Source: Psammoneis japonica (Eukaryota). From it: a stretch of 64,000 nucleotides of DNA. The number at the start of each line of letters is the position of its first letter. The stretch's first letter is position 1. The stretch lies in the NCBI GenBank assembly GCA_008632985.1, contig QPGO01000155.1, positions 124,001 to 188,000 of the forward strand, read 5' to 3'. A program made the translations under genes and the position numbers. Of the stretch, positions 21,758 through 64,000 are shown in pieces. The notes beneath the pieces were generated by a model that was given only the letters and a program-made list of their open reading frames with translations, was not told where the DNA came from and did no database searches.

Positions 21758-21991
21758 AGTTGAGACACAGTCCCACAGCTGGGTGGGATGGATAAGACCT
21801 CGGAGGTTGGCAGCAATGTGAACAGCAACAGAGGTAAACAGACGCTTGTTCAAAGTCGTTGTCTAAAAATTATGACGAATGTCATTGCTTCTGTTTGAAT
21901 CAATTTTGTGATGAGCTGATCATTTCGAAGAGAAAATCTGAGTCTGGGTTGCAGTCGTGAGATGCGACCAGAATGACGTTGAGTCGCGACT
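21758..21991 (-). repeat. 3' LTR of element 1
   Basis: Direct repeat of 27933-28166, next to PPT. Confidence 0.95.
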
Positions 21992-22012
21992 CTCCCTCTC
22001 AACCGAGAGAGC

Positions 22013-25000: not shown

Positions 25001-27770
25001 GGTCGGCTTGAGATTGTCCGGTGAGCAGTCGGATGGTGGAGGCATTGTAGACGACTGGTCTGACACTTGCTTCCTCCAACAGTTCCACAGGATCTTGAAA
25101 ATGGGCAGTGTCCACGATGTGATTCGGCAGACAGAGCTCGTCAAACCGGAAGAAATCCGGGCTGAAGTCCTCAAGAGCGTCGAAGAAACATTTCTGGTCA
25201 TCGAGAGGTTCCAGTTCCTCACAGGTGTCAAAGAAGGCTGATTCGTCCATCGCATCAGACCGTTCAGCGACTTCTAAGCTCTCCCAGTGGGCCTTGAGAC
25301 GAGTGCTCAGTGCGTGTGACGGATGGCGCGCGACAAACTCGGTGAGCACTTGCGTGCCTTTGATCCTGTGACATTCGAACAGTGACCCCGTATCCAACAC
25401 TATCCGGTCATCTAGCTCTTCCACAACATGGTAGACTTGAGAGCTGGTGGTCGAAAAATGACTTGGTACGTTCGAGAATGGATGCTCGGGCTGTTGACCG
25501 GCGTAAACTGCTGACCATGCCATCACTGCAACGGACAGGACCATCCAGGAGGCTGGAAACCCGTGCAAAGTTGGGAGTTTGCGCTGGCGGCGTAGAGCTC
25601 GAGGGATGCATGGGATCGGAGCAAAGCAAAGATGCAGTGCCGTTTCCCAAAACATGGCGGCGAGCCAGAGTGTGAATGGCTTGACTCGTCCCAAGAGTGA
25701 GCGACGCAAAGTGGGCTCGTCTTTGACGTCCTCGTGACAATCATCCGCACCCAGGACCTCTGGATCGTAGAAATCGAAGCCACGACACGCAGCACACGGA
25801 GGTGAGTCGTAGCATGCGTCTTCAAAGTGTGCGTCATGTTCAAGGATGAGATCTAACTTTGTGTCGTCTGACAGCACATCTGTCAAATGTGCGGGAGCAT
25901 CATAGAACTCATCTGGATGCTTGACAGAGTACAGCTTCGAGGCCGGAAACAACTCAATAGCCGGTGGTTTGTTTTCAAAGGTGGAGAAAGCGTCGGAGCA
26001 TTCGCAGAAGTCATCGGCGTCTTCGGGAGTGACAGTCTCAACCACGATGGGAGACACGACTGGATCCACGACTGAGGTGAGTAGAGGTGGGCTCATTTTG
26101 TTGCAAACCACCTCAGCACTGATGACTGCATCGCTCTCCCTCTCGGCCAAAGAATCCGGAGTAACAACAATTGCAGTGGTGACAGGGGCGGAACAGAAAT
26201 CCGGGTCGGCAATGGCATCTGTAGCCGCGCACCACATTCCCGTGAAAACCAACTCGTTGGGGTCGGATTCGTCTCCCTCTGGTTCCTTGGCAGTCTGAGC
26301 GGGCGGACCCATGGGCACGCCACTGTCTGGATCAGCAACGGAAGACAAATTCCCGGCTGGGGTCTCCTTGGGAGGGCGCCTGTGGTCATCGGTGTGGTCC
26401 GCGGTAGAGTGCTTCTGGTGGATTCCAGGTTTGTCGGCACCCTTCGCCGTGCACGTGGCACACCACTTCCATTCCTTGCCATTCTTATCCTTCTTCGTTT
26501 CTCCGTCAAATTCAGTGCGCCAGGCAGCGATGGGTTGCCTCTTCTTCTTGGAAGGGTTGTCTGCAGGCGGCGGATTGGGAGGAGGATCGTCGCGCGGCGG
26601 TTTGGCGTTGCACTTTGGGCACGTCTTCTTGGTGCACCCCTCGAGACCGCAACCACAACAGTGCTTTGTCTTCCCAGGGTTGTCCGCAGTCGAAAGATTG
26701 CTCTCGGGTAGCTTGGCAACCAATGCAGGCCACTCCCCGTCCTTCACGAGCTCATTGTGTTGCTCCTGAATCCACGCAATGATGCCGACCGGTCCGAGTG
26801 TGTTGTGATCGCCATCGGACACGATGTCAGCAGGATTCTTGAGGCGGCACTTGCGTTCCACAGTCTTGACGTCGTCGAGCTTGTTGTAGACTTGCCGATT
26901 GAAGTGTTCAGAGGACGTAGAGGAGATCTTGTGGAGTGGCTTGGAGCTTGTGTTTGCCGGAAGCGCGCAGTCGGTCTGCACAATTTTCACGATGCGAAGA
27001 GCTTCGGCAGCAAAGTCCGTGCAATCCTCGCCGGGACAGTTGGCCAAACTGAGGTCTTCCAGCTGCTTCTCAGCCGTCTCAATGTCCATTGGAGCGCCAG
27101 TGTTGCAAGTGTCGAGAGCCATCATGAACAGAACAGATCCAGGGCAGTCTTGGCAGTCCGAGAGATGGTTGAACTTGGTCTCGATTTTTTCGCGAAAGGT
27201 GTTGGCGATTCTTGAGTGAACGAGAAGTTGAGAGAGCCCGATGTCGTCAAGCTCGATCTCGTTGTACTTGGTGTCATCGGCAGCTGCTTTCCTGGCCGTG
27301 TGCTCGTTCACGAGATCGGTCACAGTAAACTCGTGAAGATGGTCGAAGACACATTGAACCTTGTCGTCGCTGTTCTTGACATGGCAGAACGTCTGCTGAC
27401 CATGGGCTTCTGCTAGATCTCGAATGGTCTTGACGAAATGGCCCTTGTCAAGCTCGTTGATGGGACCGTCCGAAATCTCAAGTCAACCATTGAACTTGGA
27501 AGTCATTGCGGAAGCTTGTTGATCGCGGAGAGATCGTTCCATTGAGTCGAGAGCCTTGGGATGACGGCGCTGAGAGGCGAGTCGGCAGGTTCTGTTGTTG
27601 GATTGTTCGCAGCTGTTGTTGAGTTTGGAACCACCAATGTAAACCCCGTGGGTTGGGTGAATTCCACCACGTAACGGCTTGGTTGGAGCCGGAGGAGCGG
27701 TCGCCGCGGCGTTGGCGGCCATTGCGTCGGCAAACGCCTTCGCCAGAACAGCCGGATCGATGGTGGCCAT
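22013..27770 (-). pseudogene. gag-pol of element 1
   Basis: Gag from MATIDPAV (27770); zinc knuckle; protease MDAGAT; HARFGH; integrase VSVDH..FVDHASG..HHQNGVTER; RT ARHCVRGD, HGLKQSP, HVDD; RNaseH DSDFAG..SRTG, EDNS, ADQFTKGL. In-frame TGA at 27483, 22598 and 22178; deletion plus frameshift near 23775. Confidence 0.93.
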
Positions 27771-27932
27771 GACAGAGAGTGCAGTGTGAGAGGTTCTTGT
27801 TAGAGTGAAGACGAGAGAAGCGAGAGAGACTCAGCTATTTCCCGGGTTTGCTTCAAAATCAAAAACCGAAAGCGTCCGTGACGATGACTCGGTCAGGAGC
27901 TCTCGTCAACGCGCAAATTGGTCTCTGTGACC

Positions 27933-28166
27933 AGTTGAGGTGCAGTCCTGCAGCTGGGTAGGATGGACAAGACCTCGGAGGTTGGCAGCAATATGAACAG
28001 CAACAGAGGTAAACAGACGCTTGTTCAAAGTCGTTGTCTAAAAATTATGACGAATGTCGTTGCTTCTGTTTGAATCAATTTTGTGATGAGCTAATTGTTT
28101 CGAAGAGAAAATCTGAGTCTGGGTTGTAGTCGTGAGATGCGACCAGAATGACGTTGAGTCGTGACT
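27933..28166 (-). repeat. 5' LTR of element 1
   Basis: Direct repeat of 21758-21991; abuts a PBS-like ..ctctgtgacca on the + strand. Confidence 0.95.
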
Positions 28167-41425: not shown

Positions 41426-41539
41426 CATTGCAATCTGAAGCCTGAGAATATCTTGCTGACCGAGAAGTAGTCTCATTCGAGCAATGTCAAGTTAATTGCT
41501 TTCGGTTCGGCTTGCTGTGAGATCATTTTGGTGGATCGT
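41426..41539 (+). pseudogene. DYRK-like kinase fragment in frame with the start of an IMP1 remnant
   Basis: HCNLKPENILLTEK*SHSSNVKLIAFGSACC-EIILVDR. Confidence 0.65.
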
Positions 41540-41886
41540 TGTGGGAAAGTAGCCAGAATTCTAAGATTCGTCTGCACTTTCAATGATTAAAAGCTGTAAT
41601 TGCGATACAACAATCAATCAGTAACTTTATTGTACCAAAAGTTGAGAGGTGATAATCAGTGCGTTAGAAAGATTATGAGCAGTTTTTATGAGCAGATGCA
41701 GCTGCCATCTAAAGGAAACGCGAAGTTAAACGAGCGCGAAGCTAGGAACAAACATCGCATTCGTGACTCGGCTTCCGCGGGATTCGAGACTGAGCATCGC
41801 ACACGGGGTTCGAATCTTGGATCTCTGATTTGAATCGTGGAGGTCCGATGTTGTTGTAAAAACATGCAAATATGAATATTGTCACA
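41540..41886 (-). repeat. 3' LTR of element 2
   Basis: Direct repeat of 47759-48105. Confidence 0.97.
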
Positions 41887-41929
41887 CTCCCTTCAACAAT
41901 GTCGGGTGGAATGATGACTCGAAAACGTC

Positions 41930-44900
41930 TTACCACTTAAGGAGCGATTTCCTGTGTTCGACGAAGAGATTCTGTGGTAGAGGTTTGGTGAAAATGTCTG
42001 CAATCTGATCCGCCGTATCAATTGGTAGAATTGATATGAGACCTTTGCGAACATGGTCTTTAAAGTGGTGGAGAGTGAGGTTGAAGTGTTTTGTCCGAGG
42101 ACGCATCTTAGGCAATCTCGCGATCTCCAATGCTCCAGAATTGTCTTCAAAAGCCTTACAATGTACGACTGGTGTCTTGGAAGGGACATTATGACCGTGA
42201 TCCATAAATTCTTGAATGAGGTTCAAAATTGGGGATGGCGCTTCGAAGACTTTCCGAAAGAGCGATAAATTCAGCTTCAGTAGTGCTGAGCGCGATCTGA
42301 GTCTGTAGCTTGGACGTCCAGACAATCGGACATCCTGCATAGGTGATGACAAACCCAGTTCGAGATTTGGAAGTGCCGACGTCATTGGGTGCAGTCAGCT
42401 TATTCCAATTGCCCACAAAGTCCGCGTCGGCGTGAACTTCAAGGGACTTGTCCGTTGAGGGCTGTAGTATAATACCTTCAGTTCTGGTTGACCTTAGGTA
42501 CTTACAGAGCCATAGTACGGCTTCACCGTGAGAAACCTTGGGATCGGAAGAAAGCGTGCGACTTGGTGCACCGCGTAAGCGATATCCGGTCGAGTGCTCT
42601 TCTCCAGAAAATTGAGCTTGCCGATGATGGATCGGTAATGAAAGCTCCCTTGGAAAGCAGGCTCACTCATATGCCTGTGGAGGATCTTGGAGGAAGGAGC
42701 AGGAGTAGGCTTATCTGGTAGTCTCTTTGGAATATTGGCTATCTCCAGTATCTGATTGATAAGGTGAGGTTGGGTAAGTTTCATTCTGCCGTCTGGTAGT
42801 GTTTCGACGTTGACACCGAGATAGTCGTCCAGAGTGCCTTGATCATCAATATCAAAATTCTCATCTCTGATATCCTGTATCGCCTTGTCAATAGCAGACT
42901 TGTCAGGGGATGCAAAGATACCGTCATCGACATAATGAATGAAAATGACATTGCCACGAAAATACAGGCACTCATCAACCGCCGATTGTACGAAACCAAT
43001 CCTTAACAATCCATCACGTAAGTGTTTCTTGCCATACTCTCCCTGCTTGCTTTTGTCCATATAAGTTCTTGAGCAACTTCAGAACATGAGTCTTACCATT
43101 GCCACATTTTGTTTCAATTCCTGCAGGTAACTCCATGTACATATCATGTTCGATATCGGCATGCGGATACGCCAGAACGAAGTCGACTTGGCGTGTATGC
43201 CACTTCTTAAGAATGGCAATGATCAGTAGGAGCCGGATAGTGAACCAGAAGACCACGGCAGAGTAGGTCTGGAAGTAGTTGACAGCATGCTCTTGCTTTC
43301 CACCGTGCACATTAAGTCGGGACTTCCATTTGTAGACGGCTTGGGTCTTAATATCTCTTTTGCGCTTCATAGACCATACCGAAGGGAGAACATCAACATC
43401 GTCAGGTACGTCCTCTCTTGGAATGAGTATCCAATGTTTCCTTTCAATATGATCATTGACCTCCTTAACACAGGCCTTGATAAATTCGTCTCTGTCAGGT
43501 TCACGCATAGCCTGATCAAAGTACATGGTGTCGGGGTCCGAGCTCGCCAGAAAAGAGATAGGTGAGTCCATATCGTCCTGCAGTTTGTAATCATCCTCGT
43601 GCATCGCATCATAATGTGCCTCTGCCTCTGCATTGTAGGAGACAATGCCTTGAGCCCGTTGTAGTTGGCTCTCGCGCATCCTTTCGGTCGGGCGTCGTTG
43701 TCGGCCGGACCTACTGGTGCTGGGTTGACCCATAGTGCGCTGTGGCTCAGATGGTGCGTCAGAATCATCTGGAGGCGTGTATAGCATTTCATCATCCGGT
43801 TGGGCATTATCAAATGAGTCATCAGTGGCAGACGTATCAGTGGGGTGCAGCAGCTGAGACGGGACATCCGAATTCGGCTCAGGTGGTTCCGTTGTGGTAG
43901 GGACTGATCCCTCAACCGGTACGTCACTTGATTTCCCAAAGATGTTGAAAGTACTCCTTGTCATGAGTTGTCTGAAACCTGCAATGCCTTGCCATTGTGA
44001 GAATGTAGGAGGATTCCCAGCAAAAGGGCGAACGGTCTCAAAGAAGTCGTCAAATTGTACGTGAAATTGCGGCGATACGAGTCCGGTCTGCAAATTCAAA
44101 ACCAAGGTAACTGAACCTGCGTGTCTTGTTGATGGTCCCAAATTGATTCCTAACCTTGCCCTTGGGTCCCACTTAGGCAGCCTACCTCCTCCCTGCAACC
44201 GGTTGTGCAAGGCGTAGACGGGACAGCCGAAGGTATGGTGTTGTTTGAGATTAGGCTGGACCTTGACGGACGAGAAACGTTCCAGCGGAGAAGAGCCGTC
44301 CTCGTGATTCGGTAAGTGATTCTTGATCTCGTTTGAGTTCCTGAGAGCGCTTGGCCATAAGTTCAACTCAATAGCCGTTGGCCATCTCACTTTTGCATGC
44401 AGGAGTTGCTTCCGAGATTGCTCTTGGAGGTCCCTTATTCTTTTCTCCGCGATGCCGTTTTGGAAGTGGGCGTTGACCCCACAATAGGATATTGTTTGCT
44501 GTTGCTTCTTGACGTCTTGTATGAAAGCATTGTCAGCAAATCTTCCATTGTCGGCGTGGTAGTGTTGAATACGGACGTGCATCCGGCGTGCGAATGCCTC
44601 GAAAGCGTGCTTGGCTTCGAGCGTCTCGGCTGAGGTAAGTCCTTTCTGCAAATACATGTGTCCCAATCCGCTGAAATGATCAACAAAAATTGTCGCTGCT
44701 CGATACCTTTGTTTCGTAGGTCTCCCTTTGAGCTGTGGGATCAATCCAGGAGTAGGACTCTCGAGCTGGTCGACGGATACGGCTTCTCCAGGCGAAGTTG
44801 CCAAGTGGATTCGTCGGTTCCGCTTGGACTTGGAGCGCCATGGTCGTTTCGTCATGGCACCGTATAGGCAGCCGGCACATTTTGGGTTGTGTACCTTTGT

Positions 44901-46190
44901 AAGGCGTTTCGGTAGAATGCCTAGGGCGGCCAATGGCTTTATCATTTTGAATGACATGTGGCCCAGGCGGCAATGCCAACGCAACAGTTCACCCTGGTCA
45001 TCTGTGGCAGCAAGGGCGTCATCATTTGGTGTGATGTTGATGGGTTCCGGTAAGTCCTGCTGTACCTCCGGTGTCGTGAAATCCCTTAGGTTTTCCTCGT
45101 CTGAGTCTGAACCACTTGCTCCGTCTGTTGGCTCAAATGAGACAGGAGCATCCTCATCAGTGGTGTTGCGTGCGTCTTGCGTCTCGGAAGGACGTGTCTC
45201 GGATGGACTTCTGAAGACGTCTGTATCAATTGCAGCCTCGTCATCATTCGCAATGCTCTCGTCGTCTGGTGGTATGATGTGAGCTTGACAGGCCACGTGC
45301 TCGATAGTTTCGATGTCGGTTTGTTCTTCGACAGCGGCTGCAAAGGTCCGGCATTTGTTGGAACCGGGTGCGGAGCGCATCTTGGCGACATTGGAGTTGG
45401 CGGACCATGGAATCAGGCGATGGTGCTTGCGCTGATCCCACATCAGTGACAGTCCGTCGTCCCTAGTCCAAGATGCGGTTCCGTGAGGCTCTGGCGTGTG
45501 GTCATTAGCTTGCTGGCTCCATTGCTGCGGGCAGAGAAGACAATGAGGTAAGTCGGGTGCATGGAGTGCGTCTCGAATTTTGATGCTGTGCACTTGTCCC
45601 ATGTCGTCCTCAATTGCCCACTGCACTGTTCCTTCTCCCTCAGCACGCAAGCAGCCCTTGACACCGAGTGCCATTTTGTTGGATTTGCGAAGAGGACCAA
45701 CGAAGTGTGCCTCGTCGTTGGACATGGTGCAGGAAGAATGCGAGTCGACGCCGATTGCGAATGAGCCCGAATCGTAAGTGGGCTCCGTTCGCTCGGGACG
45801 GTGTGGTGTGGTTGAGTTGCACGCTCCAACCGTCTTGTGTCGTGCAATGACATGGTGAGCCTTCTTGGTGGCCACTCTGGAGCGGTGACCTGGCCTCGTC
45901 GACGCATGACACCGTGCGCAGCACCTCGTCGTTGGCCGTCGCTGGCAAGTCTTAACTCGTCTTGTGCCTGGTTCAGCCAGGACATGTGAGATGACCCACT
46001 CACCCAGCGTCATCACGGCATGTGACAGGCGCTTGCACTTTTCTGAAGGAAGGGACAGCATCATGAACAGCAGCATGATCCAGATCGGTGCTGCACATTT
46101 CATGACGCCAGCGACCGCCATCAGGAGCACTGACACAGTGACGGCCATCTGCAAGGACAGCAGCAGTGTCAGAGTGAACCTGCAGAGCAG
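41930..46190 (-). CDS. pol of element 2 (PR-IN-RT-RNaseH) with frameshifts in RT/RH
   Basis: VDSHSS protease, WHCRLGH, VSVDQ..FVDHFS..HFQNGIAEK, FGCPVY, KSRLNVHG, LYGQKQAG, YVDD, TRPDIAYAVHQ, SRTG, EDNSG, IADIFTKPL. Confidence 0.93.
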
Positions 46191-47684
46191 TCACTCCACT
46201 TCGTTTAGGATGGTAGAGATGGCACTTGCGAAGGAGACTTTCTTGTCCGACGTGTCTGTGGATGGAGCAGACTGTTGCTTGCGGAGTCTGCAGCCTTGGT
46301 TGCCCGGATCATCAGGCAAGTGCATGACCCAAGCAGTGTGACATGGGCACCAGTGATGGTCGCGATTGTTGACGCGCTTGTGACAGCACTGATGGCCGTT
46401 CACTGTCTTCTTGGGAGTGTCCTCCTCAGGCGGGACTTTCTTCCAGGCTTCGTCCGCTTTCTGTCTCTGACGTGGAGTGGTCTTGGTCTTCCTTGACCGT
46501 GTGCTTCTTTCCTTGGTTGAGCCAGCCTTGGCCTTCAAAGCTTCAGACAGCTGAAGGTTCTGATCCTTGATGGAGTCTGCCTTGGCTGCAAGCGCGACGA
46601 TTTGCTCTTCAGCCGGTGACAGTGCTCCCCACTTCTTCTCGCGCTTGAGGTCAGCACATTTGTTCAGTGCCAACGTCATGATTTGCGTCGGCGTGAATTC
46701 CTCGCCGTCGTCACACCTGTCCTTGTGCAACATGATGCACTTGACGAACACTTCGTCAGCAGCTGCGGCGCATCCTTTGAATGGATTCATGATGAGGTCG
46801 TCGCACTGCTCTCCTCTAGCTTGGAGTCTGTCAACGTTGAGCTTGGCGCACTTGTTGAACTCTTCGATGTCCGAGTTGACAGCTGCCGCGCAGGTGTCCA
46901 GGCTTGACAAATTCTCGCGGAAGCAGTCAGCGGCAGAGCGTGTGTCAACGACGGCCTTTTGCGCAAGTGGCTTGAAGAACAGTGTGCCGATTTGATTTCC
47001 ATTGATCGTGCAGGAATCTGTCTCAGCCAACATCTTGTCTCTTGCTTCCTCCGCAAGGGATTGAGAGATCGCCTCGGCCATCTGCACATTGTTCTGTGCT
47101 TGTCGCACAGGTGGATTCGCGAAGGCATTCGCGTGGGTTCTTGCATCCTGTGGAGTGAGCAGTCCGCACTCGGAGATGAGATCTCGTGGAGCTCCATTTG
47201 CGTCGGGAATGGCAAGCATGTCTCCTGCCCCTGTTTTCCATCCTGCCTCGGCAGCTCGTTGACTGAGTGTCTCACAAAACCGTTTGAGACCTTCTGAATC
47301 GCCGTTGAACTCGTGCGGCAGCGGTGCAGTGGCGGCGTTCCAAAGCTTGAGGCCTTGCGATGTGCCGCAGTCAATGAAGTTGTTGGGACGGTGTTGACCT
47401 GGAGTCAACGCGAAGATCGGCAGTGGCGGCACAGGTGCCAATGGTGGTCCACCTGGCGGGGCTCCACCTGGTGGGACTCCACCTCCGCCTCCACCTCCTC
47501 CGCCACCTCCTCCTGGAGGCACACCGGGAGGAACGACTGGGGGAGGCACAGGAGCAACTAGAGCGGCTGCAGGAGCAGGTGCTGTTGCCGGAGCAGCAGC
47601 AGTGGCAGGAGCTGCAGCGGGTGCAGCAGCGGGAGCTGCAACAGAGGCAGCCAGAGCAGCCGCGGTTCGTGTCTGTGTGACCAT
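46191..47684 (-). CDS. gag of element 2 (497 aa, no Tyr)
   Basis: Ala/Pro/Gly-rich N-terminus, FALTPG, WC..H..W..H..C knuckle; lies between 5' LTR and pol. Confidence 0.88.
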   Translation of the reverse strand: MVTQTRTAAALAASVAAPAAAPAAAPATAAAPATAPAPAAALVAPVPPPVVPPGVPPGGGGGGGGGGGGVPPGGAPPGGPPLAPVPPLPIFALTPGQHRPNNFIDCGTSQGLKLWNAATAPLPHEFNGDSEGLKRFCETLSQRAAEAGWKTGAGDMLAIPDANGAPRDLISECGLLTPQDARTHANAFANPPVRQAQNNVQMAEAISQSLAEEARDKMLAETDSCTINGNQIGTLFFKPLAQKAVVDTRSAADCFRENLSSLDTCAAAVNSDIEEFNKCAKLNVDRLQARGEQCDDLIMNPFKGCAAAADEVFVKCIMLHKDRCDDGEEFTPTQIMTLALNKCADLKREKKWGALSPAEEQIVALAAKADSIKDQNLQLSEALKAKAGSTKERSTRSRKTKTTPRQRQKADEAWKKVPPEEDTPKKTVNGHQCCHKRVNNRDHHWCPCHTAWVMHLPDDPGNQGCRLRKQQSAPSTDTSDKKVSFASAISTILNEVE

Positions 47685-47758
47685 AGCAACAGCAGAGTAA
47701 AGCAGAATCGAGAGCTTAAGATCGATTGACTCAACTTGTAGATTGCGCAGAGGAAGCG

Positions 47759-48105
47759 TGTGGGAAAGCAGCCAGAACTCTAAGATTCGTCTGCACTTTC
47801 AGCGGCCAAAAGCTGCAATTGCGATGCAACAATCAATCAGTAACTTTATTGTGCCAAAAGTTGAGAGGTGATAATCAGTGCGTTAGAAAGATTATGAGCA
47901 GTTTTTATGAGCAGATGCAGCTGCCATCTAAAGGAAACGCGAAGTTAAACGAGCGCGAAGCTAGGAACAAACATCGCATTCGTGACTCGGCTTCCGCGGG
48001 ATTCGAGACTGAGCATCGCACACGGGGTTCGAATCTTGGATCTCTGATTTGAATCGTGGAGGTCCGATGTTGTTGTAAAAACATGCAAATATGAATATTG
48101 TCACA
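47759..48105 (-). repeat. 5' LTR of element 2
   Basis: Direct repeat of 41540-41886 with 10 A:T>G:C differences. Confidence 0.97.
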
Positions 48106-48110
48106 ATCGT

Positions 48111-48684
48111 TTGACACCGCGTCTCTTTGGCCTGCAAGGAGGACACGATGGATCCAAGCGTGCCGAGTATGCTAGACAATTACAAGAAGATTATCAAAAA
48201 CAAGAGCGACAAAAACAAGAACAAAAGGCAAAAAGTTTGCGAAGAAGACCAACTGAACATCATGAATGTTTGTCAAGTGTACTACAGGACTTCATGTCGG
48301 TGATGTGGTGGTGGTACAACATCCAGACCGTTCGGGAACGGTGTGCAAGCGTATCTTGGGTCTGCCTGGGGATGTTGTGGTCCAACCCGCTTCCAATTTT
48401 GCTTTTCAAAATTCATCTCGAGGAGGCTTGCTCGTTATTCCGGATGGACACCTGTGGATAGAAGGTGATAACTCCATGAACTCGTCGGATTCTCGGAATT
48501 ATGGACCTATTCCATCCCGCATCCCTGCGAGTGCATCGTTTTATTTAAGGAGGGCCTCAGCCATGTTCATGGACTAATATGCAGCTGCGCTGCCTTTGTT
48601 TCATCGTAGGGGGAGCACGATCTTGCCTGCTGGATACGAAGGAGAAGTCATCCTTAAACACGCCGAAGAGAAGCCATCACAATA
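48111..48684 (+). pseudogene. Mitochondrial inner membrane peptidase IMP1-like (S26), 3' part, interrupted by element 2
   Basis: GDVVV..CKRILGLPGD..IPDGHLWIEGDN..SSDSRNYGPIP; continues EIILVDR across the TSD; catalytic-Ser box not seen. Confidence 0.8.
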
Positions 48685-53290: not shown

Positions 53291-54819
53291 CGATTTTTTA
53301 GAGCGGGACCAGCAATCGTCGAGATACTACGTACAGGCATCTCATAGGTTTCCTGCTCCACCAGAAATTACACCAAAATTGACCAGCAGAGATTCGTGAC
53401 GCAAGGTGGTTGATGGGCTTGGATCTCAAGCTCCTACAAGAGATGTCAAACTGATGCTCGTCATGACTCATGGAGGATGCAACGGTAAAACTTCATGACA
53501 GTGCCATCGCGTGGGATCCAACATGGCCTCGTGAACTGGACGTCAACGTAGGACGGTGCATTTCTCTGAACGACATTCTTGAGTGAAGCGAGCCGGTGAG
53601 TTTAGCATCGTTGCACCCAGTTCGCTGCTCGTAATCCCTGCGGGAGAACTCAAGGGTGGCACATTCTGGATCTTCTGCTTCGACCTGGAGGCCTGAAGGA
53701 CATATTTTTTTCTTGACGCTAAAAGATCATCTCGACTCGTGCAACCGGCAGAGAGCCTTTGCGGGATCGACAAAATACACGAAAGAACTGCACTGGCGAG
53801 CGACAGAAAACAGCTTTTCGGCAACCTCAAACCGATGCTCTTCTTTTGATTTTTGATCAAGTTCTGCAGTTGTACTTCTGTTTCTAAAACCAACATGGAC
53901 TTAATATTCTAAGACCAAACATGGCTGCTATCCTTCACGACTTGTTGACTCATCGGTACGCACGCCATTGTGCACTCCGCATTTTTTTTGGGCAGGATGT
54001 CGTCAGTCCGTCGCTTCTCCGTCAATTTGAACAATCGCTGTGGTGCGTGGTGCACAGGCTTGTGCGTGGTGCACGACGCGTGCTGTGGTTACGGAGAACG
54101 GTCGCGCATTGTCTGTCGGTGGTTGTAGGAACAGTTGCAGTTGACTAGATTGTAAAGAACAACATGGCCAATCAAACCAGGTTGCTTTCTCTAGGGCTGA
54201 GTGCTTTTCTGGGGGCTGAAAAGCTCTGCAGCCAATCACCCGACTTTTCGAAAAACTCACTCCAAAGAACCCCTCATCTTGTTGGGATGCCAACAATCTG
54301 GCGGGTCTGTGACCGCCTGCTGCAATCCGGGCATTTCCTGACTGTAATCCCAGACAAGTGTCTCTCATTGAGTCAGGTTCTTTTTCATTTCAGTTCAGAA
54401 CCAATTTGGTTTACAGGCTCCTTGTTTCTAAATTGCACCCTGGAGCCTGCTTTGAACAGCGGCCATGTTCTTGTGCCTCTGCAACCCCGCGTTTGGCCTT
54501 TCTTGACAGTCACTGTGTTTGGTCGCTCCTTCATTTCATCTCATGCTGCATGTGATGCAACATCAGCACCTGAAATGTCCTTCTAAATTGCATCCATTTG
54601 CAGCCCAACAAACAGCATGGTGAGCTTCTCATTGTCACAATGAAGCAATTGCAGTCAAAGCAAAACCATGAGACTTGGCAGCCTGCGCACCTTTGCTTCC
54701 TGTTGCAACATTCCTGAGGTCTGAAAGCTTGGGGAAGAATCTCTGCAGCTGTTGGTTTCTCTCTCAAATCATCTGCCAAGGGAAGGCCAAAGGATGCCAT
54801 TGTGAACAAGTGTCTGGAT

Positions 54820-55096
54820 GACTTGCCTGGCATCAAACAAATGCGATGGACCTTTGCCTGGCATCAAATGAACACAAGGGACCTTTGCTTGGCATCAAAC
54901 AGCTGCTGAATGCAGCGGACCTTTGCTTGGTGTCAAACAAATGCAACCTGCCTGTGCTCAGCATTGAAGAATGAATGTGATGTGCCTTTGCTCAGGATTG
55001 AATGAACATGGTGCACCTTTGCTGGGGATCAAATGAGTGCCTCACTTTGCTCAGCATCAAATGAATGTGACAGATCTTTGCTCAGAGTCAAATGAG
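54820..55096. repeat. Degenerate ~30-bp tandem repeat, about 9 units
   Basis: Recurring cctttgc(c/t)(tg/ca)gcatcaaa core. Confidence 0.7.
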
Positions 55097-58000
55097 TTGA
55101 ATTTGAATTTCACAATGGAGCATCACAAACGCACTTTGCAGTCACTTGGCTCTTCATCTCATCCTTGTTCTTTTCACTTCAAGAACTCTAAAATCAGCAC
55201 TTTGTCAAACCCAGACTGCATCAGCATGACACATTGTTTTAAGTTTCTGTTTGCTCTGACTTTTCTGGATCACTGAAACTCAGGCAGGAAGCTTTGGAAG
55301 ACACTGGACAGAATGGGGCTGGGCTTCCGTTTTCAAAAAACAGCGAAAGCACTTGCATGCTCTTTTGTCTGCTGTGGCTTTGACTGTTTCAATTTGCCTG
55401 TCACCAATCAATTGTTCAACACAACAATTGCCGGCAAGTGCCAGCGCCCCGTGGACTTTTGACAACAGAATCAAGCAACTTCAATCTTTGAGCTCACAGC
55501 TCTGCCCTCTCCAGCAGGGAGCACTGCAGCTTGAGAAACCTGCTGCATCAGCTGCACACACCAACAAAAGCAAAGCAGGAGTGGCCCTGCACTCTCTGAA
55601 GCAGTTGCTGAACAATCTCGCCACTGGGTCCCCACAGGAGCTGTTTCTGTCATCCAAAGAACCATTCATTGTGCACGACTTCATGTTCTCAAGTGGAGTT
55701 TCAAGATTTTGCAAAGTTTGCTGTCACATCCAGCACAAAATGTCAACCAAAATGTGTGCAAACTGTCTCTTTCCTCATGCATTGCCAGCTCTCAAACTCG
55801 TTGGTGTGATGGAGCATTTTGACATGGTTGCCCCATTTCGCCCACTGGAAGAACCAACATTTCACACTCCTTTGTTGCTTGTTTGTCTCAAAGATGTGCT
55901 CCACTTTTGCAAAAAAATGATCATCATCAAGTCCTTCCCTGATGAGGGCTTTGATTGCTCCCTTGCTGAACTTCATGTTGGTCCTGCATTTGACACAACA
56001 CAGAGCTTGTTCACAAAAAGCAGTTTTGTGGCTTTGATTGTGAGCACTTGTCAGTCATCAGTGCCACATCATCTCAATGGGCAACAGCAGGCACTGCAGG
56101 GTGCTTTGCCACCTCCGGGCACAAGCGCACCCTTGTCATCTTGGTGCCTCAGTGATGAAGGATGAAATTTCATCTCAGGCTGAAAGCTCAACTTGGTGCT
56201 GGTCTTCTTGGAGTGTGAGAACTTGTGGCTTTTGTCATCTCTGCTGCTGGCAGCAACCACAACTTTGGCCTTGGTCTCCAGGCATTTGGCATTCATCAAC
56301 TGTGTGAGGCCAGTTTCTGCAAGCACTGAACGCAGCACTTGCAACTCTTTGGAGTGAATGTTGAACCCACAAGCCAGTGTTCCCAAAAAGGAATCCTGCC
56401 AGGCTTTGTGTGCCTCTTGACACACTTGTCTTGGTTGGTGGCAGTGGCTGTGGTGTGATGAAAGTTGTCAATGTGAACTTCAATCTTGCGGTGCACAACA
56501 GGTGCCCAGTGATGCCAAATGACAAACCAAATGATTCCATCCAAAGAGCAAGATGAAGCTGAAAGGTGAGAGATCAGCAATGGCGAAACTTTTCCCGGTG
56601 GTGCATTGAGGGGGTTGCCCATGGTGCATGAAAGATGCAAAGGCTTCAGACTTTCTTCTTATCAGCTGCTCACAGCAGTTGTGAAACAGCAGAAAATGAA
56701 AACTTGCAAGTGTGTGTGGCAAGAGTGAGCACCACATGATGATGGGGCATTGGCAGACAGGGCAACAAGCAGTGGCCTCTGCCAGCCAGTGGCTGTGAAG
56801 CAGCAGCACAGCACTCACCAAGGAGGGGACACTGCATCAGTTGTGGGGCTGCCCAGCAGCAGGGCCATCTGTGTGGCACCATCAAAGCAGCAGCAAAAAT
56901 CACCAGGCATCCCCACATGTTCCACCAACAAGTCCATCTGAGAGCAGGTGTTTGTCACAACATCTCAGTGACCATGTCAACATCAGACCATTTGAAGGCC
57001 AACAGCTGGGTTTTTGATGACTCAGTCAGGTCAAGGAGGACAAAGCAGTCTGTTGGGACAAATGCATGCTTTCTCTGCTTCCACCTTCTCAGCTTGCTTT
57101 TGCAGCCCAAGAGCTCAGGCTCACAGCACAGCAAGAAAATGAGGCCACTTCAGATGCAAGGAGTTGTTGAGGCAGAGGGGCAATGTCAACAAAAAAGAGC
57201 TCTGGGGTGTCATGTTTTGGCGCAGGCTTGCACTGCCACTGCACAAGCTGTGCTGCTGCCTTTGAAAGTCAAAACTGTTGAAACAGCAGCAATTTTGGGC
57301 AATCTGGGAGCAGCCATGATCACAGTTGGCATCAACGGCTTTTCAGTTGCTTGGCATGACATCACTTGAAAGTTGCAGTGTGCTCACTGTCATGACAACA
57401 AAGGCAAAGCTTTCCTTGGCTGCACATGGTGTGTGCACCTTGCTTGGGCACAACAAACATTGCTGGCAATTGTCAACCTCACAAGGAGCACACATGCCCT
57501 GCATTGAGAGGCACCCCCAGTCCTTTGCAAGGGTGCAGTTTTGTGGCTTGTGTTCATTTGCTGTGCAGCTGTTGCTCTTGCACTCATGCATCAGTCTTCA
57601 TCACAGAGCCAACAGGCTTCAGGCTTTCATGCCTGTTGTGGCCTGATGCTTGCAGCAACAGTTGTTTCCTTTGCTGAAATGGGGTGGTTGGTGCTGCACC
57701 ACTGCACTTCAATTCAACGGCATCAAAATGAGAGACAAATCAACATCTGAGGCCGTTTGCCCAGTTTTTGATCACTTGCACTAAAAGGGTGTCATTTGCT
57801 CTCAACTCAAACACCACTTTCTCATCTGCTGAGCTGCTGTTTGTGTGTTGGTGCAGCTGGGCTGGCTGCATGTGCTGTCAAGCCAATTTTCTGCCTCAAT
57901 GGCAAGCTCTTCTTTTTCCCATTGCTTGCCAGTCAGACTGGAAAATTTGAGAACAACAGCCACCTTTGGCACATCTCCATCAACTGGAGGGGGGCAAGAC

Positions 58001-58668
58001 AGGAAGCATCGCCGCTTTTTTCACTGTCCCAAGAACTGGTGAGATGGTTGTGACAGAGAAGAAGTGCCCATTTGATGGCAGGCACATGCTGCTTTGCCTT
58101 CAGCACACATCTGCTGGGCTGCATTTTTTTCTGGCAATGTTGGCACACTTTCAAGGGCAGCAACATCTGCTCTGCCAATGAAGGCCCCCAGCACCTTCTA
58201 AAAAGGCAGCTCTCAAACATGCACAATCTTTGCTGCATCAAGCATTTTGGGTGGCTTGGTGGAGGCAAACCAGCTGCAAAACAAAAATGGCTCAGAGCAT
58301 TGCCAACTGCAAAAGAGCCTCAAATGCACAAAACTTTTTGTTGTCAAGCTTTTTTGTTGAATCCCAACTGCTTTTGTTCTTTTCAGAATGAAGTCCAGTG
58401 TGCACATCTCTGCACTTTGTTGCCATGCCAACAACGTCCAATGTTGGCACCATCACGGCTCACACACTGCCTCTTTGCAAAGGCATCATCACAAGCAGTG
58501 GTGCTGCAGAGTGTTTGCATGATGTCCTCTGTCTGGAAGTCTCTGTGCTGCTGTGCACAAGGAGCCATGTCTGTGGACAATTTGCAAAAGTCGTGCAGAT
58601 CAGGGCACATGTGCTGTGCTCTCATGGATCTGAAGACAGCTCTTGGTGGCACCAATGACCCCCCCCCC

Positions 58669-58865
58669 NNNNNNNNNNNNNNNNNNNNNNNNNNNNNNNN
58701 NNNNNNNNNNNNNNNNNNNNNNNNNNNNNNNNNNNNNNNNNNNNNNNNNNNNNNNNNNNNNNNNNNNNNNNNNNNNNNNNNNNNNNNNNNNNNNNNNNNN
58801 NNNNNNNNNNNNNNNNNNNNNNNNNNNNNNNNNNNNNNNNNNNNNNNNNNNNNNNNNNNNNNNNN
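58669..58865. other. Assembly gap
   Basis: Run of N. Confidence 1.
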
Positions 58866-61800
58866 GTGCCTGACTGTTCTTTGGTCTTTCATGACATGTT
58901 TGTTGCAAACATTGCCAGCTCTCATGTCAAGATGGCATTTCAAGATGGTGCCATTTGGTTGAGGAGCAAGGGCATCTCACCGCCCATGCTGTGAGCATCA
59001 TGTGGGGAAGGTGTGCAAATCCAGAGCAAGACAGGGAAGCAAATCAGCAGAAGAGCCTCTCATTGTGCAGAGCATGGGTGGCCAAAAGAACCAACTGCTG
59101 TGTCAGCTCATTTTCTCCACACAAGGGCAACACCATTGTGGCTGTGATCCTTGTGAAGAGCCCACCCTTGGTTTCCCAAGTTTTGGTTGTGGATTTTTCA
59201 TTCTTGATTTTGGTGTGAATTTGCTCAAAATTGTGGTTGACAATGTTCCGCCATTGCAGAGAATGTGCAGAGGCTTGTTCTTTGCTTTGCCCAAAGAGGT
59301 GCTCACATGAGTGATGACTGCTGGACTGGTGTGAATTGCTTTTTTGGGGCTTCCCAATGTCCAGCAGTGCGCAAGACTCCTCGAGCAGCGCCAGTTCAGA
59401 ATCACTGCACATCACAAGAAGTGGGATGTGGCGGTGCTGTTGAAAATTCTCCAGCCAATCTTGTTCTTCAATGCAACTGGGAGAGTCTGCTTGCATGTCT
59501 GGGCAGTTGAGGCTTGGAAGCAGTTGGAAATTAATTTGTCAAGACAAAGAAAAAGCACTTCCAAGATTGCTGCAATCAGCTCACAAGTGTTTTTGAAATG
59601 GCGGAGGGTTTTGTGGCAGGGTTGTCCCAGAAGAAATTTCCAAGAAAGGAGATGGGTTTAGCACAGATGCCAATGACACCTGGAAGAAAGAGAGGAACAA
59701 GTTGTTGGCAGCACTGTCAATGGAAGGTGTCAAGAAACATTGGCTTGTCTCAAAAGACCTGTGCTGGCAATTTGCACTGGGATTCACAATTGTCCCATTT
59801 TGGCCAAGGAGGCACTGCAGGTGTTGGACACAGGCAGGGCCAACAAAAAACCTGAGGGCACAAGTCTTGTGCAAAATGAGAAGAAACAGCTCAAATGCAA
59901 AAGGTTGGGCATGTGAAAAAGGACTGTCCTTTGCTCAATGACAACAGCGATCATTTGTTGGTGGAGACACATGACATCAGCTGTGGAGAGAAACAAGGCA
60001 GTCAATGTGGCACTGGATGGCATGGTTTTCAAGTGTTGTCCTCCTGCAGCCAGTGTGCATGAGGCCAATCCATTGATGGTGGCTTGTGCAAAGGAGTGTG
60101 TTGGAACATTGGGGAGCAAGGCAGTTTTCAACAATTGTGGATGAGGTGAAGTTGCACTCACATGAACTTTTTGTGAGTTGTGGGTCTTGTGCTCACTTTT
60201 CAGCTTTTGCACCTGCTGGCCAACATGGCAACAGTGGCAGCGGCAATGGAAATGCGGTGTTTGCAATCCACATGCGGCAAGTTTGGGGATCAGTGAGACC
60301 AAGTGTGTGCCACATTCAGCAAGCTGTGGAATCACAGCACCGCTGCAAGACCCCCCTCTGAAGTTTTTTTTGGCACAACAGGCTCCTGCAAAAGGTCAAA
60401 AGTGCCCACAAGTGGCCAATCAAGGTCCCACACAGAAAGCATGCAGGTCCAAGGAAAGGAAGCCATTCTGAACATTTTGGCCCAGTGTCACAAGGCCAAT
60501 CTCAAAGCCACCAACAGCTGTTCATTTTCACTGTTCCATGCTGAAATTCACATGTGTGGTGCGTCATCCACAAAAAGGCTGCCCCCACACTTGGAAACCA
60601 AAAAGGCATTTTCTGTGCTTGTCATGAGAGAAAAAAAACATGATGCTGTTGGTGCGCACACACTTCTTGATGCAGACAATGCTGTCTTGCACCTTGATCA
60701 ATGGTGCGACAACCAACACATGATCAAAGAACAAGCCCCATGGCAGAAGATGCAGCATCATTGTTTGTTGTGCAATGTGCATTGCATTGGGCACAATTTC
60801 AAGTTGTGACATCATGCACCATGGAAATTTGTGGCTTTTTGTGCAGTGATGAAGCACAGCACAGTGAACTTGACACCTGCCAAGAAAACAGCAAGCATGC
60901 AAGAGCTGCATGTGAGCCCAAGACTCGGCCTCAACTTGCCAGGATGTGGTGGTGCAAAGTGCTCAAAGTTGCCACAAGGATGTTCAGATTCTCAGCTTGC
61001 CAAAGTGAGGTGACTTTGCCAAATCTGACCTGCCAACCACCTGGAGAGGCCAGGTGCCACCCTGTCCTCTTCTTGAACAACTCTGAGCTAAAGCCTGCCA
61101 GCCAACATGCAAAGGAAAAAGTTGAGAAGGCTGGGTGGTTGTCTGCCAGGGAGTCTGAGCATCTGATGGCTCAATTGCACAGATGCACCTGCTGCTTGGC
61201 TGCTTTAAAAAAGAAAGAGCTGTGCAGAAACAAGTGTGAGACAATGAGCATGCTTTTGCGAGATTCTTGCTGGCAATGGCACATGTGCCATGCTGGCAGA
61301 CACACCAGACAACTTGTCAATCTGCAGAAAAATGCAGCAATTGGCAAAAGTGCGCCACTCACAAGTGTGCTTGTTTTGTTTGGCAATGGGGCCTGGATTT
61401 GACTTCATTCTAGAGTTCCCCAATTTTGCAGCAGAGCTGCAGAAAGTCTCTCCCACACACACACCAGATGACTTGTTCATTGAACAAAGCAAAGCAAGGG
61501 ATTTTTTTTCTGACAGAGTGGCAAAATCATGCTCAACAGGAGCAAAAAAAAGATCCACATGTCTCTCTTTCTTTTTCAACACAGACAAAACCAACAAAAA
61601 AGAGGGTGCTGCAGTGTGGCAGTCACCAAGCAAACAATTTTGCAAAAAGTGTTTCCAAAGAAAGTCTGTTGGGCCTTGTTTGAGCTTTTGAGCAAGGGGG
61701 GCTCTGGGGGGCACAATGCAGCAAGAGAAGCAGAGCTGGTTGGAGGCAGCATGATGATGTGTGTTGTGCAAGCAAGTTTGAGTGGTGGACCTTTCCCCAA

Positions 61801-62517
61801 TTTTTGTTGCTTCTTTTCTCATGTTTGATCATTTTAAAGTGCTTGAGCAGTGTGAACAATCTTTAAAAGGTGGTCATTTTTCCTGAAAACAAAGTGACAG
61901 GAACAAGCTGCTGTGTGGCTGCCACTGGTTTTGCTGCCTCTTGGAGCCATTTTTTTTGTCTCTTCTGCTGCATTTGGCTGTTTTTAACAAGAAATGTCAG
62001 CATTTTTTACAGTGCAACAAGGAGCTCAGATGCAAAAAGTGACTTTCTAACTGAAGTCATTTGGACAGAACAATCAGGAGAGCTGAGTTTTGCTTTTTTT
62101 GGTGCACACCATTGGCTGTCAGAAAGACCAAGTGGTGGTTCGCTGACCTGTGTGGGAGTCTTGTGGGTGATCTGCATGCTGGCATTGAAAAAAGTTTGTT
62201 GACTGTGAAGCAACTGTGCAATGTGAAAGACAGCAGAAGAGGTGACAACAAAATGTTGACAAATTTCAATGCTTGGAAAAGAAGTTTTGCCTCAGACAAG
62301 TGAAGCAAAATGGCCACAACATCTGGACATTGCCAATGTTTTTCATCTGGCTTGCAACATTGGACACTTGTTGCACTTGCCCACGGCATTTTGGTTGTCA
62401 TGCACCACCAAAGCTGAGTGCAAAATCTCTCTTTTTTGTTTGCACAAAAAAAATTGATGTCATCCATGACAGCACAATGCAAAAAATGTGCAAGTGCATG
62501 AGTCACCAAGACACTCT

Positions 62518-62588
62518 CCTGTTGTTGTTGTTGTTGTTGTTGTTGTTGATGTTGATGATGTTGATGATGTTGATGATGACGATGATGT
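62518..62588. repeat. (GTT)n/(GAT)n microsatellite
   Basis: Direct reading. Confidence 0.9.
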
Positions 62589-64000
62589 TTGCAGCTGGTG
62601 CCAAGTTGACAGAGACAAGGGTTGTGAAGAGAAATCTAAAGGAGTTCCAGAAAGAAAGACACCAAGCATGCAAACATCAGCGAGCTCTCCACAAAACAAA
62701 ACAAAACAAAGCCACAAAGAGCAACTCAAATTGCAGCCAAATGACCAAGTGGGCTGCAGCCTTGGGCTGTTGACCTGTCTTAGAAAATGAAAGTTGCCTT
62801 CTCACCTTGGTTGCAACAGCTGTTGGTTCATAAATGGCAGGGTTCATGGCAGCAGCATGGTGCATTTTGGTGTGCGCAACTTGCAACTTGAGTCACACAA
62901 AACACATCATCTTCATTTTGGAGCTCAGCAGTTTTCTTGCGCGGGTTTGGCACCAAACATGATGCAGAACACACAGAAACAAACCAAAAACCTCATGATT
63001 CATTCTAAAGTTTCTCATTTGGAGATCTGTCTGCCCCAGCAGTGGTGAGCTGCAAGTGGCACAATGCCAGCAAATGGCAGTTCCATGCACAAGCACTGGC
63101 CAACCTTTGCGAGACTGGAGGGCTTTGTTGTTTTGCAGCCACGTTTCTGTGTGAATGTTGGCACAACAAAGTTTGTAAAAATGCCCAGCTGATTGACAAA
63201 AACATTGCACACTGCACTCAAAAGTGTGCTGGCTGGCACAACTGCTGTTGCACTGGATGTTTGCAGGCACTCAGCACACAAGAAAGAGAGGCAAGTTTGG
63301 CGCCAATGTTGGCTCCTCCTGTCATGGTGGTGAGTTCCCCCACCCAAGCAACCATGGGCTGCTTTGACTGGCAATCATCATGATTTTGCCTCAGTCCAAG
63401 TTCCAAAGACACACGCCATCAAACACACACTGGAAACCTGCCTCTGTTGTGTGGGGCGGGGAAGACCTCACAACAAGAATGACTTGGCTCCGGCAGATCA
63501 CTCTGATTCGCAATGAGGAAGAGAGGATCCACTCGCCCTTGACAGACAACTGAAGTGACCACTGCAATGGTGGCGACAATGTGTTTCAAAGAGTCAAATG
63601 GCAATTTTGTGTGCTTTGTGCAACTGACAACTGAGCAAAGTTTGTCCAGGGTTCAAATGGCACGAGCTCCGAACTCCCGAGACTTCCTTCCTGCAGCTGG
63701 ATCGCACAACAACAGCACTGCGGTCAGCAAGCAAGACAATGACGATGGTGCTTCTGTGTCGCGACGACGACTCTTTGTCTCTTCCTTGGTGACAAACTCA
63801 TCCATCATGGCTGAGGACAGCACAGTCACAATGCCTCCTTTTGTCCGTTTGCATGTTCCTTTCATCATGCGTGACAACAACGCATGCCATTGAGCCGGTG
63901 CGTTTTGAGGATCTTCTCAGCAATGAAGAACATCGTCATGCAGCCTCACCACCCTAGACCGAGAGCCCGAAGGATGTGAAAGAACTCTACACAAGTCAGC

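What the first reader, a model, noticed from the sequence alone, without database searches (positions are those of the whole stretch)
44700..47860. Mutation tract covers only the 5' half of element 2
Gag has no Tyr in 497 aa (IDCGT, SECGL, FKGCA, NKCAD, HHWCPCH) and the protease region is nearly Tyr-free (WHCRLGH). From about 44900 leftwards, integrase core, RT, RNaseH and the 3' LTR keep normal TA and Tyr (HYHADNG, FGCPVY, LYGQKQ, YVDD). This is an internal control within one insertion. It implies kb-scale tracts, possibly set by promoter-proximal chromatin, transcription or a pairing partner. The acidic insert of element 1 (~25400-25950) similarly retains several Tyr.
Basis: seen in the sequence. 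Interest (0 to 1): 0.78.

Follow-up and report, generated by a model that had tools for sequence, protein, structure and literature searches.

The report
Half-mutated retrotransposons with spliced antisense RNA
In a diatom, a TA-to-TG/CA mutation process has repeatedly wrecked the front half of one family of jumping genes while sparing the back half, which likely makes a many-intron antisense RNA that may shield it, giving a testable handle on how this little-known genome defence picks its targets.

Summary
Confirmed and larger than one insertion. Element 2 (copia, 41540-48105, intact target-site duplication) has lost 94 of 110 TA sites in its 5' half and 11 of 122 in its 3' half; the tract is about 44935-47853. 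Changes are A-to-G, strictly in TA, on both strands, made after insertion and independently in each copy. The 5' bias recurs in 8 of 15 independent insertions of the family, never reversed, so it is encoded by the element, not by chance, flanks or assembly. The process matches TpA hypermutation reported in Bigelowiella natans (2026 preprint); this scan noted it in this genome many times, including one similar gradient. New here: contigs of a public run show six GT-AG introns antisense to pol across the spared half, and antisense splice donors are six-fold enriched in this family and its relatives. Best reading: a chromatin-gated mutator held off by the element's antisense transcription unit (0.45). 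Against it: donors continue into the mutated half, and three other families show no, opposite or mixed polarity. Homology pairing and promoter-proximal targeting are not supported as general rules.

The parts
41540..48105 (-). Element 2: full-length Ty1/copia LTR retrotransposon (6566 bp), one of at least 21 near full-length copies
   Evidence: Pfam Pol_BBD, gag_pre-integrs, SH3_retrovirus, RVT_2 in copia order
47759..48105 (-). 5' LTR (347 bp); all 10 differences from the 3' LTR are A:T to G:C in this LTR, at 47769-47853; outer 250 bp identical to the 3' LTR
41540..41886 (-). 3' LTR, TA sites kept
48106..48110 (.). 5-bp target-site duplication, upstream copy
   Evidence: empty-site junction seen in contigs of both runs
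41535..41539 (.). 5-bp target-site duplication, downstream copy
46191..47684 (-). gag ORF, 497 aa, no tyrosine; followed in frame by a TGA stop that a TA-rich copy also has
41893..46190 (-). pol (protease, integrase, RT, RNase H); three single-base indels private to this copy near 43025, 42550 and 42231 break the frame
44935..47853 (.). TpA hypermutation tract (TA to TG or CA, both strands); 104 of 123 TA sites lost in the best-fit segment
42730..44934 (.). Partly protected zone (integrase core to RT): few losses in this copy, about 0.07-0.26 pooled loss per 250 bp in the family
41890..42730 (.). Most protected zone (RNase H end): 0.00-0.02 pooled loss; candidate site of the antisense promoter (inferred)
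42895..45250 (+). Spliced antisense transcript of the family, laid from run X2; no long ORF (longest stop-free stretch 111 codons in three TA-rich copies); both ends not determined
43018..43126 (+). antisense intron, GT-AG, 109 nt
   Evidence: joint in X2, absent in X1
43406..43498 (+). antisense intron, GT-AG, 93 nt
43562..43638 (+). antisense intron, GT-AG, 77 nt
43919..44008 (+). antisense intron, GT-AG, 90 nt
44107..44176 (+). antisense intron, GT-AG, 70 nt
44312..44402 (+). antisense intron, GT-AG, 91 nt, inferred from a 15-letter loose end
44635..44719 (+). antisense intron, GT-AG, 85 nt
45050..45141 (+). antisense intron, GT-AG, 92 nt, inferred from a 9-letter loose end; lies at the tract edge
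45548..47217 (+). Nine further antisense donor-like motifs of the family inside the mutated half; this copy has lost the GT at six of them; use as splice sites untested

Best explanation
A host process has rewritten TA to TG or CA on both DNA strands of this retrotransposon after it inserted, hitting the gag-protease half of independent copies again and again, likely because it works in silenced, CpG-methylated chromatin and the pol half is kept open by the element's own spliced antisense transcription unit. Shown: the spectrum (A:T to G:C transitions in 5'-TA, TAC > TAT > TAG > TAA), its timing after insertion, its independence between copies, the family-wide 5' polarity with steps near element positions 3050 and 5400, CpG decay concentrated in the same tracts, GT-AG joints antisense to pol, and excess antisense splice donors. 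Inferred: that the enzyme is an adenine deaminase of the TadA/ADAT kind acting on DNA (as proposed, not shown, for Bigelowiella natans), that run X2 is RNA, that the antisense promoter lies in the RNase H region, and that transcription or splicing there excludes methylation and the mutator, with protection fading towards gag.
For: Spectrum: 543 of 1383 and 318 of 1383 TA sites hit on the two strands against at most 1.1% in other contexts, 14 young copies. After insertion: TA lost in the 5' LTR only 91 times, in the 3' LTR only 18 times, 20 LTR pairs. Independent: median TG/CA agreement 0.61 over 105 pairs; 1.0 and 0.91 only for two pairs that share flanks. Polarity: 8 of 15 insertions with matching target-site duplication are 5'-biased at p<0.01, none 3'-biased at p<0.05; four tract ends fall at positions 2944-3171 and two at 5372-5435; two steps fit better than linear position, GC or CpG density. 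The RNase H end is spared even in L039, whose downstream flank has 1 TA in 550 bp. Private CpG decay 1.73 per kb inside tracts, 0.38 outside. Six GT-AG joints on the + strand in X2, none in X1; X2 contigs carry the unmutated TA alleles. Antisense GTAAGT 12 against 2.0 expected, 0 of 500 synonymous shuffles reaching it; 12 host ORFs 1 against 1.4; 11 of 32 metagenomic relatives enriched on the antisense strand at 0.05 or less, 0 of 32 on the sense strand, mostly at different codon positions. Slight excess of hits on the + strand at positions 3001-5300 (logit -0.29 and -0.39, each +-0.15). A family without antisense donor excess spares its own promoter-leader kilobase instead.
Against: Nine of 18 internal antisense donor motifs lie inside the mutated half, so the sequence signal does not stop at the tract edge. 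Family 1 has antisense donor excess but no polarity and more loss in its 3' LTR, 64 against 29. The family of L220 also has the excess, yet 1 copy is 5'-biased and 4 (3 insertion sites) are 3'-biased. Exons and introns of the antisense unit lose TA at similar rates, 316 of 701 and 159 of 394. The transcript's ends, its strand beyond the introns, and any chromatin mark are not measured; the two step positions were chosen after seeing the data; no enzyme is identified.
Confidence: 0.45

Rival explanations
1. The mutator is guided to the 5' half rather than kept off the 3' half: a short gag-type sense RNA, or its duplex with the antisense RNA, yields small RNAs that direct methylation and TA editing to positions about 250-3050, from where it spreads.
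For: Tract starts inside the element with normal flanks in the window copy (19 TA in 550 bp upstream) and in L035, L027, L021; lightly hit copies L030 and L034 already show the 5' bias; four tracts end near one point. In Arabidopsis EVD 95% of siRNAs map to the short gag RNA (PMC5580714, section 12 read), though that paper calls this unique to EVD.
Against: No strand bias in the 5' half after context (logit -0.04 and 0.07); family 3 spares its 5' kilobase; it does not by itself explain the second, near-absolute step at the RNase H end.
Confidence: 0.28
2. Copies are mutated along their whole length and the 3' half is then overwritten by unmutated sequence, through recombination with 3'-biased cDNA or with another copy.
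For: L040 shares both flanks and all 117 jointly mutated sites with L039 but is clean at positions 3600-6000; L032 is 1 substitution from L023 and L034 over 4400-6200; four copies have unmatched target-site duplications.
Against: Private non-TA, non-CpG changes are as dense outside as inside tracts (0.81 and 0.80 per kb; transversions 0.38 and 0.48; 7 copies, small counts); the window copy's LTRs share a minority allele and 250 identical bases; graded declines in L025, L027, L035 and low-dose bias in L030.
Confidence: 0.1
3. Tracts spread in from neighbouring mutated domains or start at random; the 5' bias is an accident of insertion sites.
For: L031 and L025 have TA-poor upstream flanks (3 and 1 in 550 bp); in the L220 family two 3'-biased copies have TA-poor downstream flanks.
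Against: 8 to 0 among independent insertions in both chromosomal orientations; L026 is unmutated beside a TA-free downstream flank; the window copy has normal flanks and an unmutated outer 5' LTR.
Confidence: 0.08
4. Assembly artefact: a mutated 5' half joined to, or polished with, the 3' half of other copies.
For: Some other copies are chimeric; no spanning read was available.
Against: Matching target-site duplication; the 3' half is 19 substitutions from the nearest other assembled copy, with three private indels and five TA losses absent from 11 lightly mutated copies; an artefact has no reason to follow the element's sense direction in 8 insertions.
Confidence: 0.05
5. RIP-like homology pairing marks the mutated part.
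For: Repeat-directed, both-strand, dinucleotide-specific transitions with CpG decay.
Against: The spared part is the best-matched repeat; LTR pairs are not hit together; gag and RT searches return the same set of copies; the B. natans target is single-copy.
Confidence: 0.03

Closest known systems
TpA hypermutation of integrated viral DNA in Bigelowiella natans (Mettrop et al., bioRxiv 10.64898/2026.01.13.699255; parts 1-3 of 5 read)
   Same: A:T to G:C transitions only at TpA, both strands, chromosomal DNA, foreign sequence; TE domains enriched among TpA-poor genes; ADAT2-like deaminase proposed, not shown.
   Different: There two viral regions of 25 and 186 kb in a rhizarian; here a diatom, young retrotransposon copies, 3-5 kb tracts with element-fixed edges, a 3'-base preference and coupling to CpG decay. 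In the parts read, no structure inside an element is described.
Repeat-induced point mutation (RIP) of ascomycetes (own knowledge; indices as in PMC7884421 passages)
   Same: Host-made, dinucleotide-specific transitions on both strands that inactivate repeats and go with cytosine methylation.
   Different: RIP is C to T at CpA and creates TpA; it follows homology, whereas here the most identical part is spared.
Spliced antisense lncRNAs of Ty1/Copia and Ty3 elements in Blumeria hordei (PMC10648671, passages read)
   Same: Non-coding, intron-containing RNA antisense to the element's replication genes.
   Different: A fungus; no link to a mutation tract in the passages read; here up to eight short introns in 2.2 kb and donor excess over synonymous shuffles across a clade.
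EVD/COPIA93 short gag RNA and its siRNAs in Arabidopsis (PMC5580714, abstract and section 12 read)
   Same: A copia element whose host defence concentrates on the gag half.
   Different: Sense splicing and small RNAs, methylation but no hypermutation; a short gag RNA was not tested here.
CoDi (copia of diatoms) elements (PMC2806351, two passages; PMC9998398, passages)
   Same: Diatom Ty1/copia with PR-IN-RT-RH order, one stop between gag and pol, targets of DNMT5 CpG methylation in Phaeodactylum.
   Different: 'antisense' and 'intron' do not occur in the main text of PMC2806351; CoDi group not assigned here.

Membership tests
TpA hypermutation as in B. natans | Almost only A:T to G:C transitions | tested here: met
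   Window copy: 74 A>G, 50 T>C, 17 C>T/G>A, 4 transversions
TpA hypermutation as in B. natans | Restricted to TpA, both strands | tested here: met
   39% and 23% of TA sites against at most 1.1% elsewhere
TpA hypermutation as in B. natans | Acts on integrated chromosomal DNA of foreign origin | tested here: met
   LTR asymmetry 91 to 18, independent TG/CA choice; neighbouring host DNA keeps TA
TpA hypermutation as in B. natans | Rate about 1000-fold above background, active in only some lines | not testable with these tools
   Needs mutation-accumulation lines; copy-to-copy spread from 27 to 289 TA is compatible
TpA hypermutation as in B. natans | ADAT2-like deaminase as cause (proposed only) | tested here: inconclusive
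   Nine PF00383 and four PF02137 matches (two loci) in the genome; none can be tied to DNA editing
RIP | C to T at CpA, TpA gain | tested here: not met
   CpA C>T 0.2%; TpA lost
RIP | Mutation follows extent of homology | tested here: not met
   RT part 98-99% identical in 15 other copies and spared
RNA- or cDNA-stage editing (ADAR, APOBEC type) | One strand only, shared by both LTRs | tested here: not met
   Both strands, intermixed, no same-strand runs (z 0.4 or less); LTRs differ
Error-prone patch synthesis (polymerase eta type, recalled) | WA motif including AA, many transversions, clustered errors | tested here: not met
   AA at most 1.1%, transversions rare; non-TA A>G not clustered at TA sites
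Ty1/copia LTR retrotransposon | LTRs with TG..CA, 5-bp target-site duplication, PR-IN-RT-RH order | tested here: met
CoDi groups | RT phylogeny with named CoDi elements | not tested
   No reference CoDi sequence was held; host is a diatom by 24 silicon-transporter matches
TE antisense lncRNA | Spliced, antisense to TE genes, non-coding | tested here: met
   Six GT-AG joints on the + strand; 16-24 stops per frame in the spliced part; run type is recorded as 'DNA?', RNA is inferred from the joints
TE antisense lncRNA | Own promoter and defined ends | not testable with these tools
   Contigs show no start or end

The most novel reading that the evidence does not exclude
A clade of diatom copia elements has written a chain of short introns into the back of its own coding strand so that an antisense, gene-like transcript disguises the pol region as host DNA and shields it from a TA-editing genome defence: a retrotransposon counter-defence against targeted DNA mutation, visible as family-wide half-mutated copies.
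Probability: 0.25. Interest if true: 0.9.

Novelty: new variant of a known kind. Interest (0 to 1): 0.7.

Why it matters
TpA hypermutation has one description, in one alga, with no enzyme and no targeting rule. A young family of over 20 near-identical copies, each mutated independently with fixed edges, is a ready-made map of what attracts or excludes the process; it rules out simple homology pairing and RNA-stage editing and names two short intervals to test. If a natural DNA adenine deaminase is behind it, that matters for base editing as well. Separately, clade-wide excess of antisense splice donors inside a pol reading frame suggests selection on a hidden non-coding transcript of diatom retrotransposons.

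Tried and rejected
Sense-strand (transcription-coupled) bias: raw counts favour the sense strand (543 to 318) but vanish after fitting the 3' base. Processive same-strand runs: none. G-skew or R-loop zone in gag: the sense strand is C-rich there. GC or CpG density as the cause of the gradient: add nothing beyond position. A protein from the spliced antisense RNA: no long ORF (one search used wrong edges for two introns and is superseded). Sister families (18 stretches) were mostly saturated and uninformative; L082, a further copy of this family, shows a mild 5' dip but was not scored. Four- and two-copy families were too TA-poor to call. Reads: no RNA holder was listed; the one lay used a 97% threshold, which excludes unmutated copies over the mutated half, so nothing can be said on transcription there; X2 also had no cover at 41514-42798, which proves nothing. 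TET/JBP search found nothing, control silent. Protein atlas gave only unnamed clusters for gag and nothing for a host gene. Paper searches found the B. natans preprint and the Blumeria paper but no report of TpA hypermutation in a diatom, of polarity within an element, or of antisense donor excess in copia; the library lacks most subscription papers, and the preprint's supplements and methods were not seen. PMC7884421, PMC11624286 and PMC7264820 (passages) added only background.
Full report
What is there. The window comes from a 91-Mb genome with 24 silicon-transporter matches, that is a diatom. Element 2 is a 6566-bp Ty1/copia element on the minus strand, 41540-48105, with 347-bp LTRs and the same 5-bp duplication on both sides. 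TA counts fall from about 8 per 200 bp left of 45000 to 0-2 between 45100 and 47500 while CpG stays. Gag has no tyrosine in 497 aa.

Copies. Searches of the genome with the gag part and the RT part returned largely the same set of copies; the RT part is 98-99% identical in 15 others while gag is 93-95%. I fetched the 20 best further copies by the gag search and scored 292 TA sites present in at least two of the three TA-richest real copies. The window copy lost 94 of 110 sites in its 5' half and 11 of 122 in its 3' half; best-fit tract 44935-47826, outermost LTR change 47853.

The mutation. In 14 young copies (four older ones left out), at positions 350-2900, A became G at 543 of 1383 TA sites on the sense strand and 318 of 1383 on the other, and at 1.1% or less in AA, CA, GA; order TAC, TAT, TAG, TAA. 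The choice of TG or CA agrees between copies at a median of 0.61 (105 pairs), reaching 1.0 and 0.91 only for two pairs that share flanks, so copies were hit independently. TA was lost in the 5' LTR alone 91 times and in the 3' LTR alone 18 times, 11 of these in one copy (20 pairs): the change is made in chromosomal DNA after insertion. There are no same-strand runs and no clustering of other A-to-G changes near TA sites. This is the signature reported for integrated viral DNA in Bigelowiella natans (bioRxiv 10.64898/2026.01.13.699255; abstract to conclusion read), where an ADAT2-like deaminase is proposed but not shown. Earlier notes of this scan led me to that paper and describe the process throughout this genome.

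Polarity is a family property. Of 15 insertions with matching duplications, 8 are 5'-biased at p<0.01, 4 are nearly untouched and 3 are mutated end to end; none is 3'-biased at p<0.05 (two trend that way, p 0.05-0.06). Of the 6 set aside, 4 are 5'-biased, 1 even and 1 truncated, saturated copy is 3'-biased. Four tracts end at positions 2944-3171 (window about 44935-45160), two at 5372-5435, others at about 2200-2550 and 3850. Pooled loss is 0.42-0.61 over 250-3000, 0.07-0.26 over 3000-5500 and 0.00-0.02 over 5500-6250. Two steps fit better than linear position, and GC and CpG density add nothing, though the steps were placed after seeing the data and sites are not independent. Flanks do not explain it: the window copy has ordinary flanks and an untouched outer 5' LTR; L026 is clean beside a TA-free flank; L039 keeps its RNase H end beside one. 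Two polar copies do have TA-poor upstream flanks. Private CpG decay is 1.73 per kb inside tracts and 0.38 outside, while other private changes are level (0.80 and 0.81): tracts likely were methylated, and the 3' halves do not look younger.

Artefact. Several other copies are mosaics: L023, L034 and L032 have unmatched duplications and share a flank with another copy, and L040 is L039 with a clean middle. The window copy is not of this kind: matching duplication, 19 substitutions to its nearest 3' relative, three private indels and five private TA losses in the 3' half. No spanning read was available; the runs found come from a sample with other flank alleles and an empty site.

An antisense transcript. 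Laying two runs at 97% likeness gave, in X2 only, six joints with GT-AG ends on the + strand, 70-109 nt long, between 43018 and 44719, and two loose ends that fit introns at 44312-44402 and 45050-45141. X2 is listed as 'DNA?'; the joints, absent from X1, make it likely RNA. Its contigs carry TA where the window copy has lost it, so the RNA comes from other copies. The spliced part has 16-24 stops per frame. Antisense GTAAGT occurs 12 times in the ORFs of TA-rich copies against 2.0 expected from synonymous shuffles (0 of 500 reach it); the sense strand and 12 host ORFs show no excess. Among 32 non-redundant ORFs of 600 codons or more from 80 metagenomic loci, 11 show antisense donor excess at 0.05 or less (6 at 0.01 or less) and none on the sense strand; positions mostly differ between relatives, which points to selection for having donors rather than to conserved codons. 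Spliced antisense RNAs of copia elements are known from Blumeria hordei (PMC10648671, passages).

Other families. Element 1's family (17 elements scored, from the window and 16 of 20 fetched) is 45-67% mutated throughout, with no polarity and more loss in the 3' LTR, although it too has donor excess. A third family (16 copies) spares its first kilobase, LTR and leader (pooled 0.26 and 0.44 against 0.67-0.76 next), and has no donor excess. A fourth has donor excess; one copy is 5'-biased with RT spared (47 of 108 against 4 of 94) and four copies at three sites are 3'-biased. So protected zones are fixed by the element in two families, in opposite places, and antisense donors alone do not dictate polarity.

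How it most likely works. A TA-specific A-to-G mutator, likely a DNA adenine deaminase, acts where chromatin is silenced and CpG-methylated. In this family the gag-protease half falls first; the pol half is likely held open by the antisense unit, most strongly at the RNase H end just upstream of the first laid exon, where its promoter would lie. The slight + strand excess at 3001-5300 fits this weakly. Against it, nine of 18 internal donor motifs lie in the mutated half, introns and exons lose TA alike, and the other donor-rich families differ. The main rival is guiding to the 5' half by a short gag RNA or sense-antisense duplex, as for EVD siRNAs (PMC5580714). The two are not exclusive. Candidate deaminases exist and cytosine methyltransferase matches are many (27), but none is tied to the process.

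Verdict. Real; a new variant of a recently described process, with a family-wide internal map and an unreported spliced antisense unit that make its targeting rule testable. Interest 0.70.

Noticed in passing
window 54200-64000: About 10 kb nearly empty of both TpA (o/e 0.00-0.09 in most 500-bp bins) and CpG (mostly 0.0-0.25): an end state of both decays.
   Followed up: no
window 14000-16200: A third TA-poor block (1 TA per 500 bp at 15001-16000) with Tyr-poor, retroelement-like frames.
   Followed up: no
window 21758-28166: Element 1 lacks about 850 bp that most copies of its family have; the family is mutated evenly and its antisense donor-like motifs are mostly the TA-free GTGAGT.
   Followed up: partly
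L023, L034, L032, L040: Mosaic copies: flanks shared with other copies and unmatched target-site duplications; ectopic recombination, conversion or mis-assembly.
   Followed up: partly
L198-L213, first 1000 bases of the element: Third copia family keeps a TA-rich LTR and leader (33-39 TA per 500 bp) in most copies while the rest is mutated.
   Followed up: partly
L123, L124, L125, L133: Metagenomic copia relatives with low TpA (ORF o/e 0.22-0.32 in L123, L124, L133), L123-L125 also with low CpG: the process may occur in other organisms.
   Followed up: no
L232 and L233 (G000:C40, C79): Two adenosine-deaminase (PF02137) loci, where one ADAT1 would be expected (recalled); no RNA-binding domain evident in the frames listed.
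   Followed up: partly
L065:313-1785: Deaminase domain and a 2OG-Fe(II) oxygenase in one open frame.
   Followed up: no
G000:C38:226311-230342: Three silicon-transporter domains in one 1511-codon frame.
   Followed up: no
window 48513-48611: A further 97-base skip in run X2 outside the element, possibly an intron of a flanking transcript.
   Followed up: no
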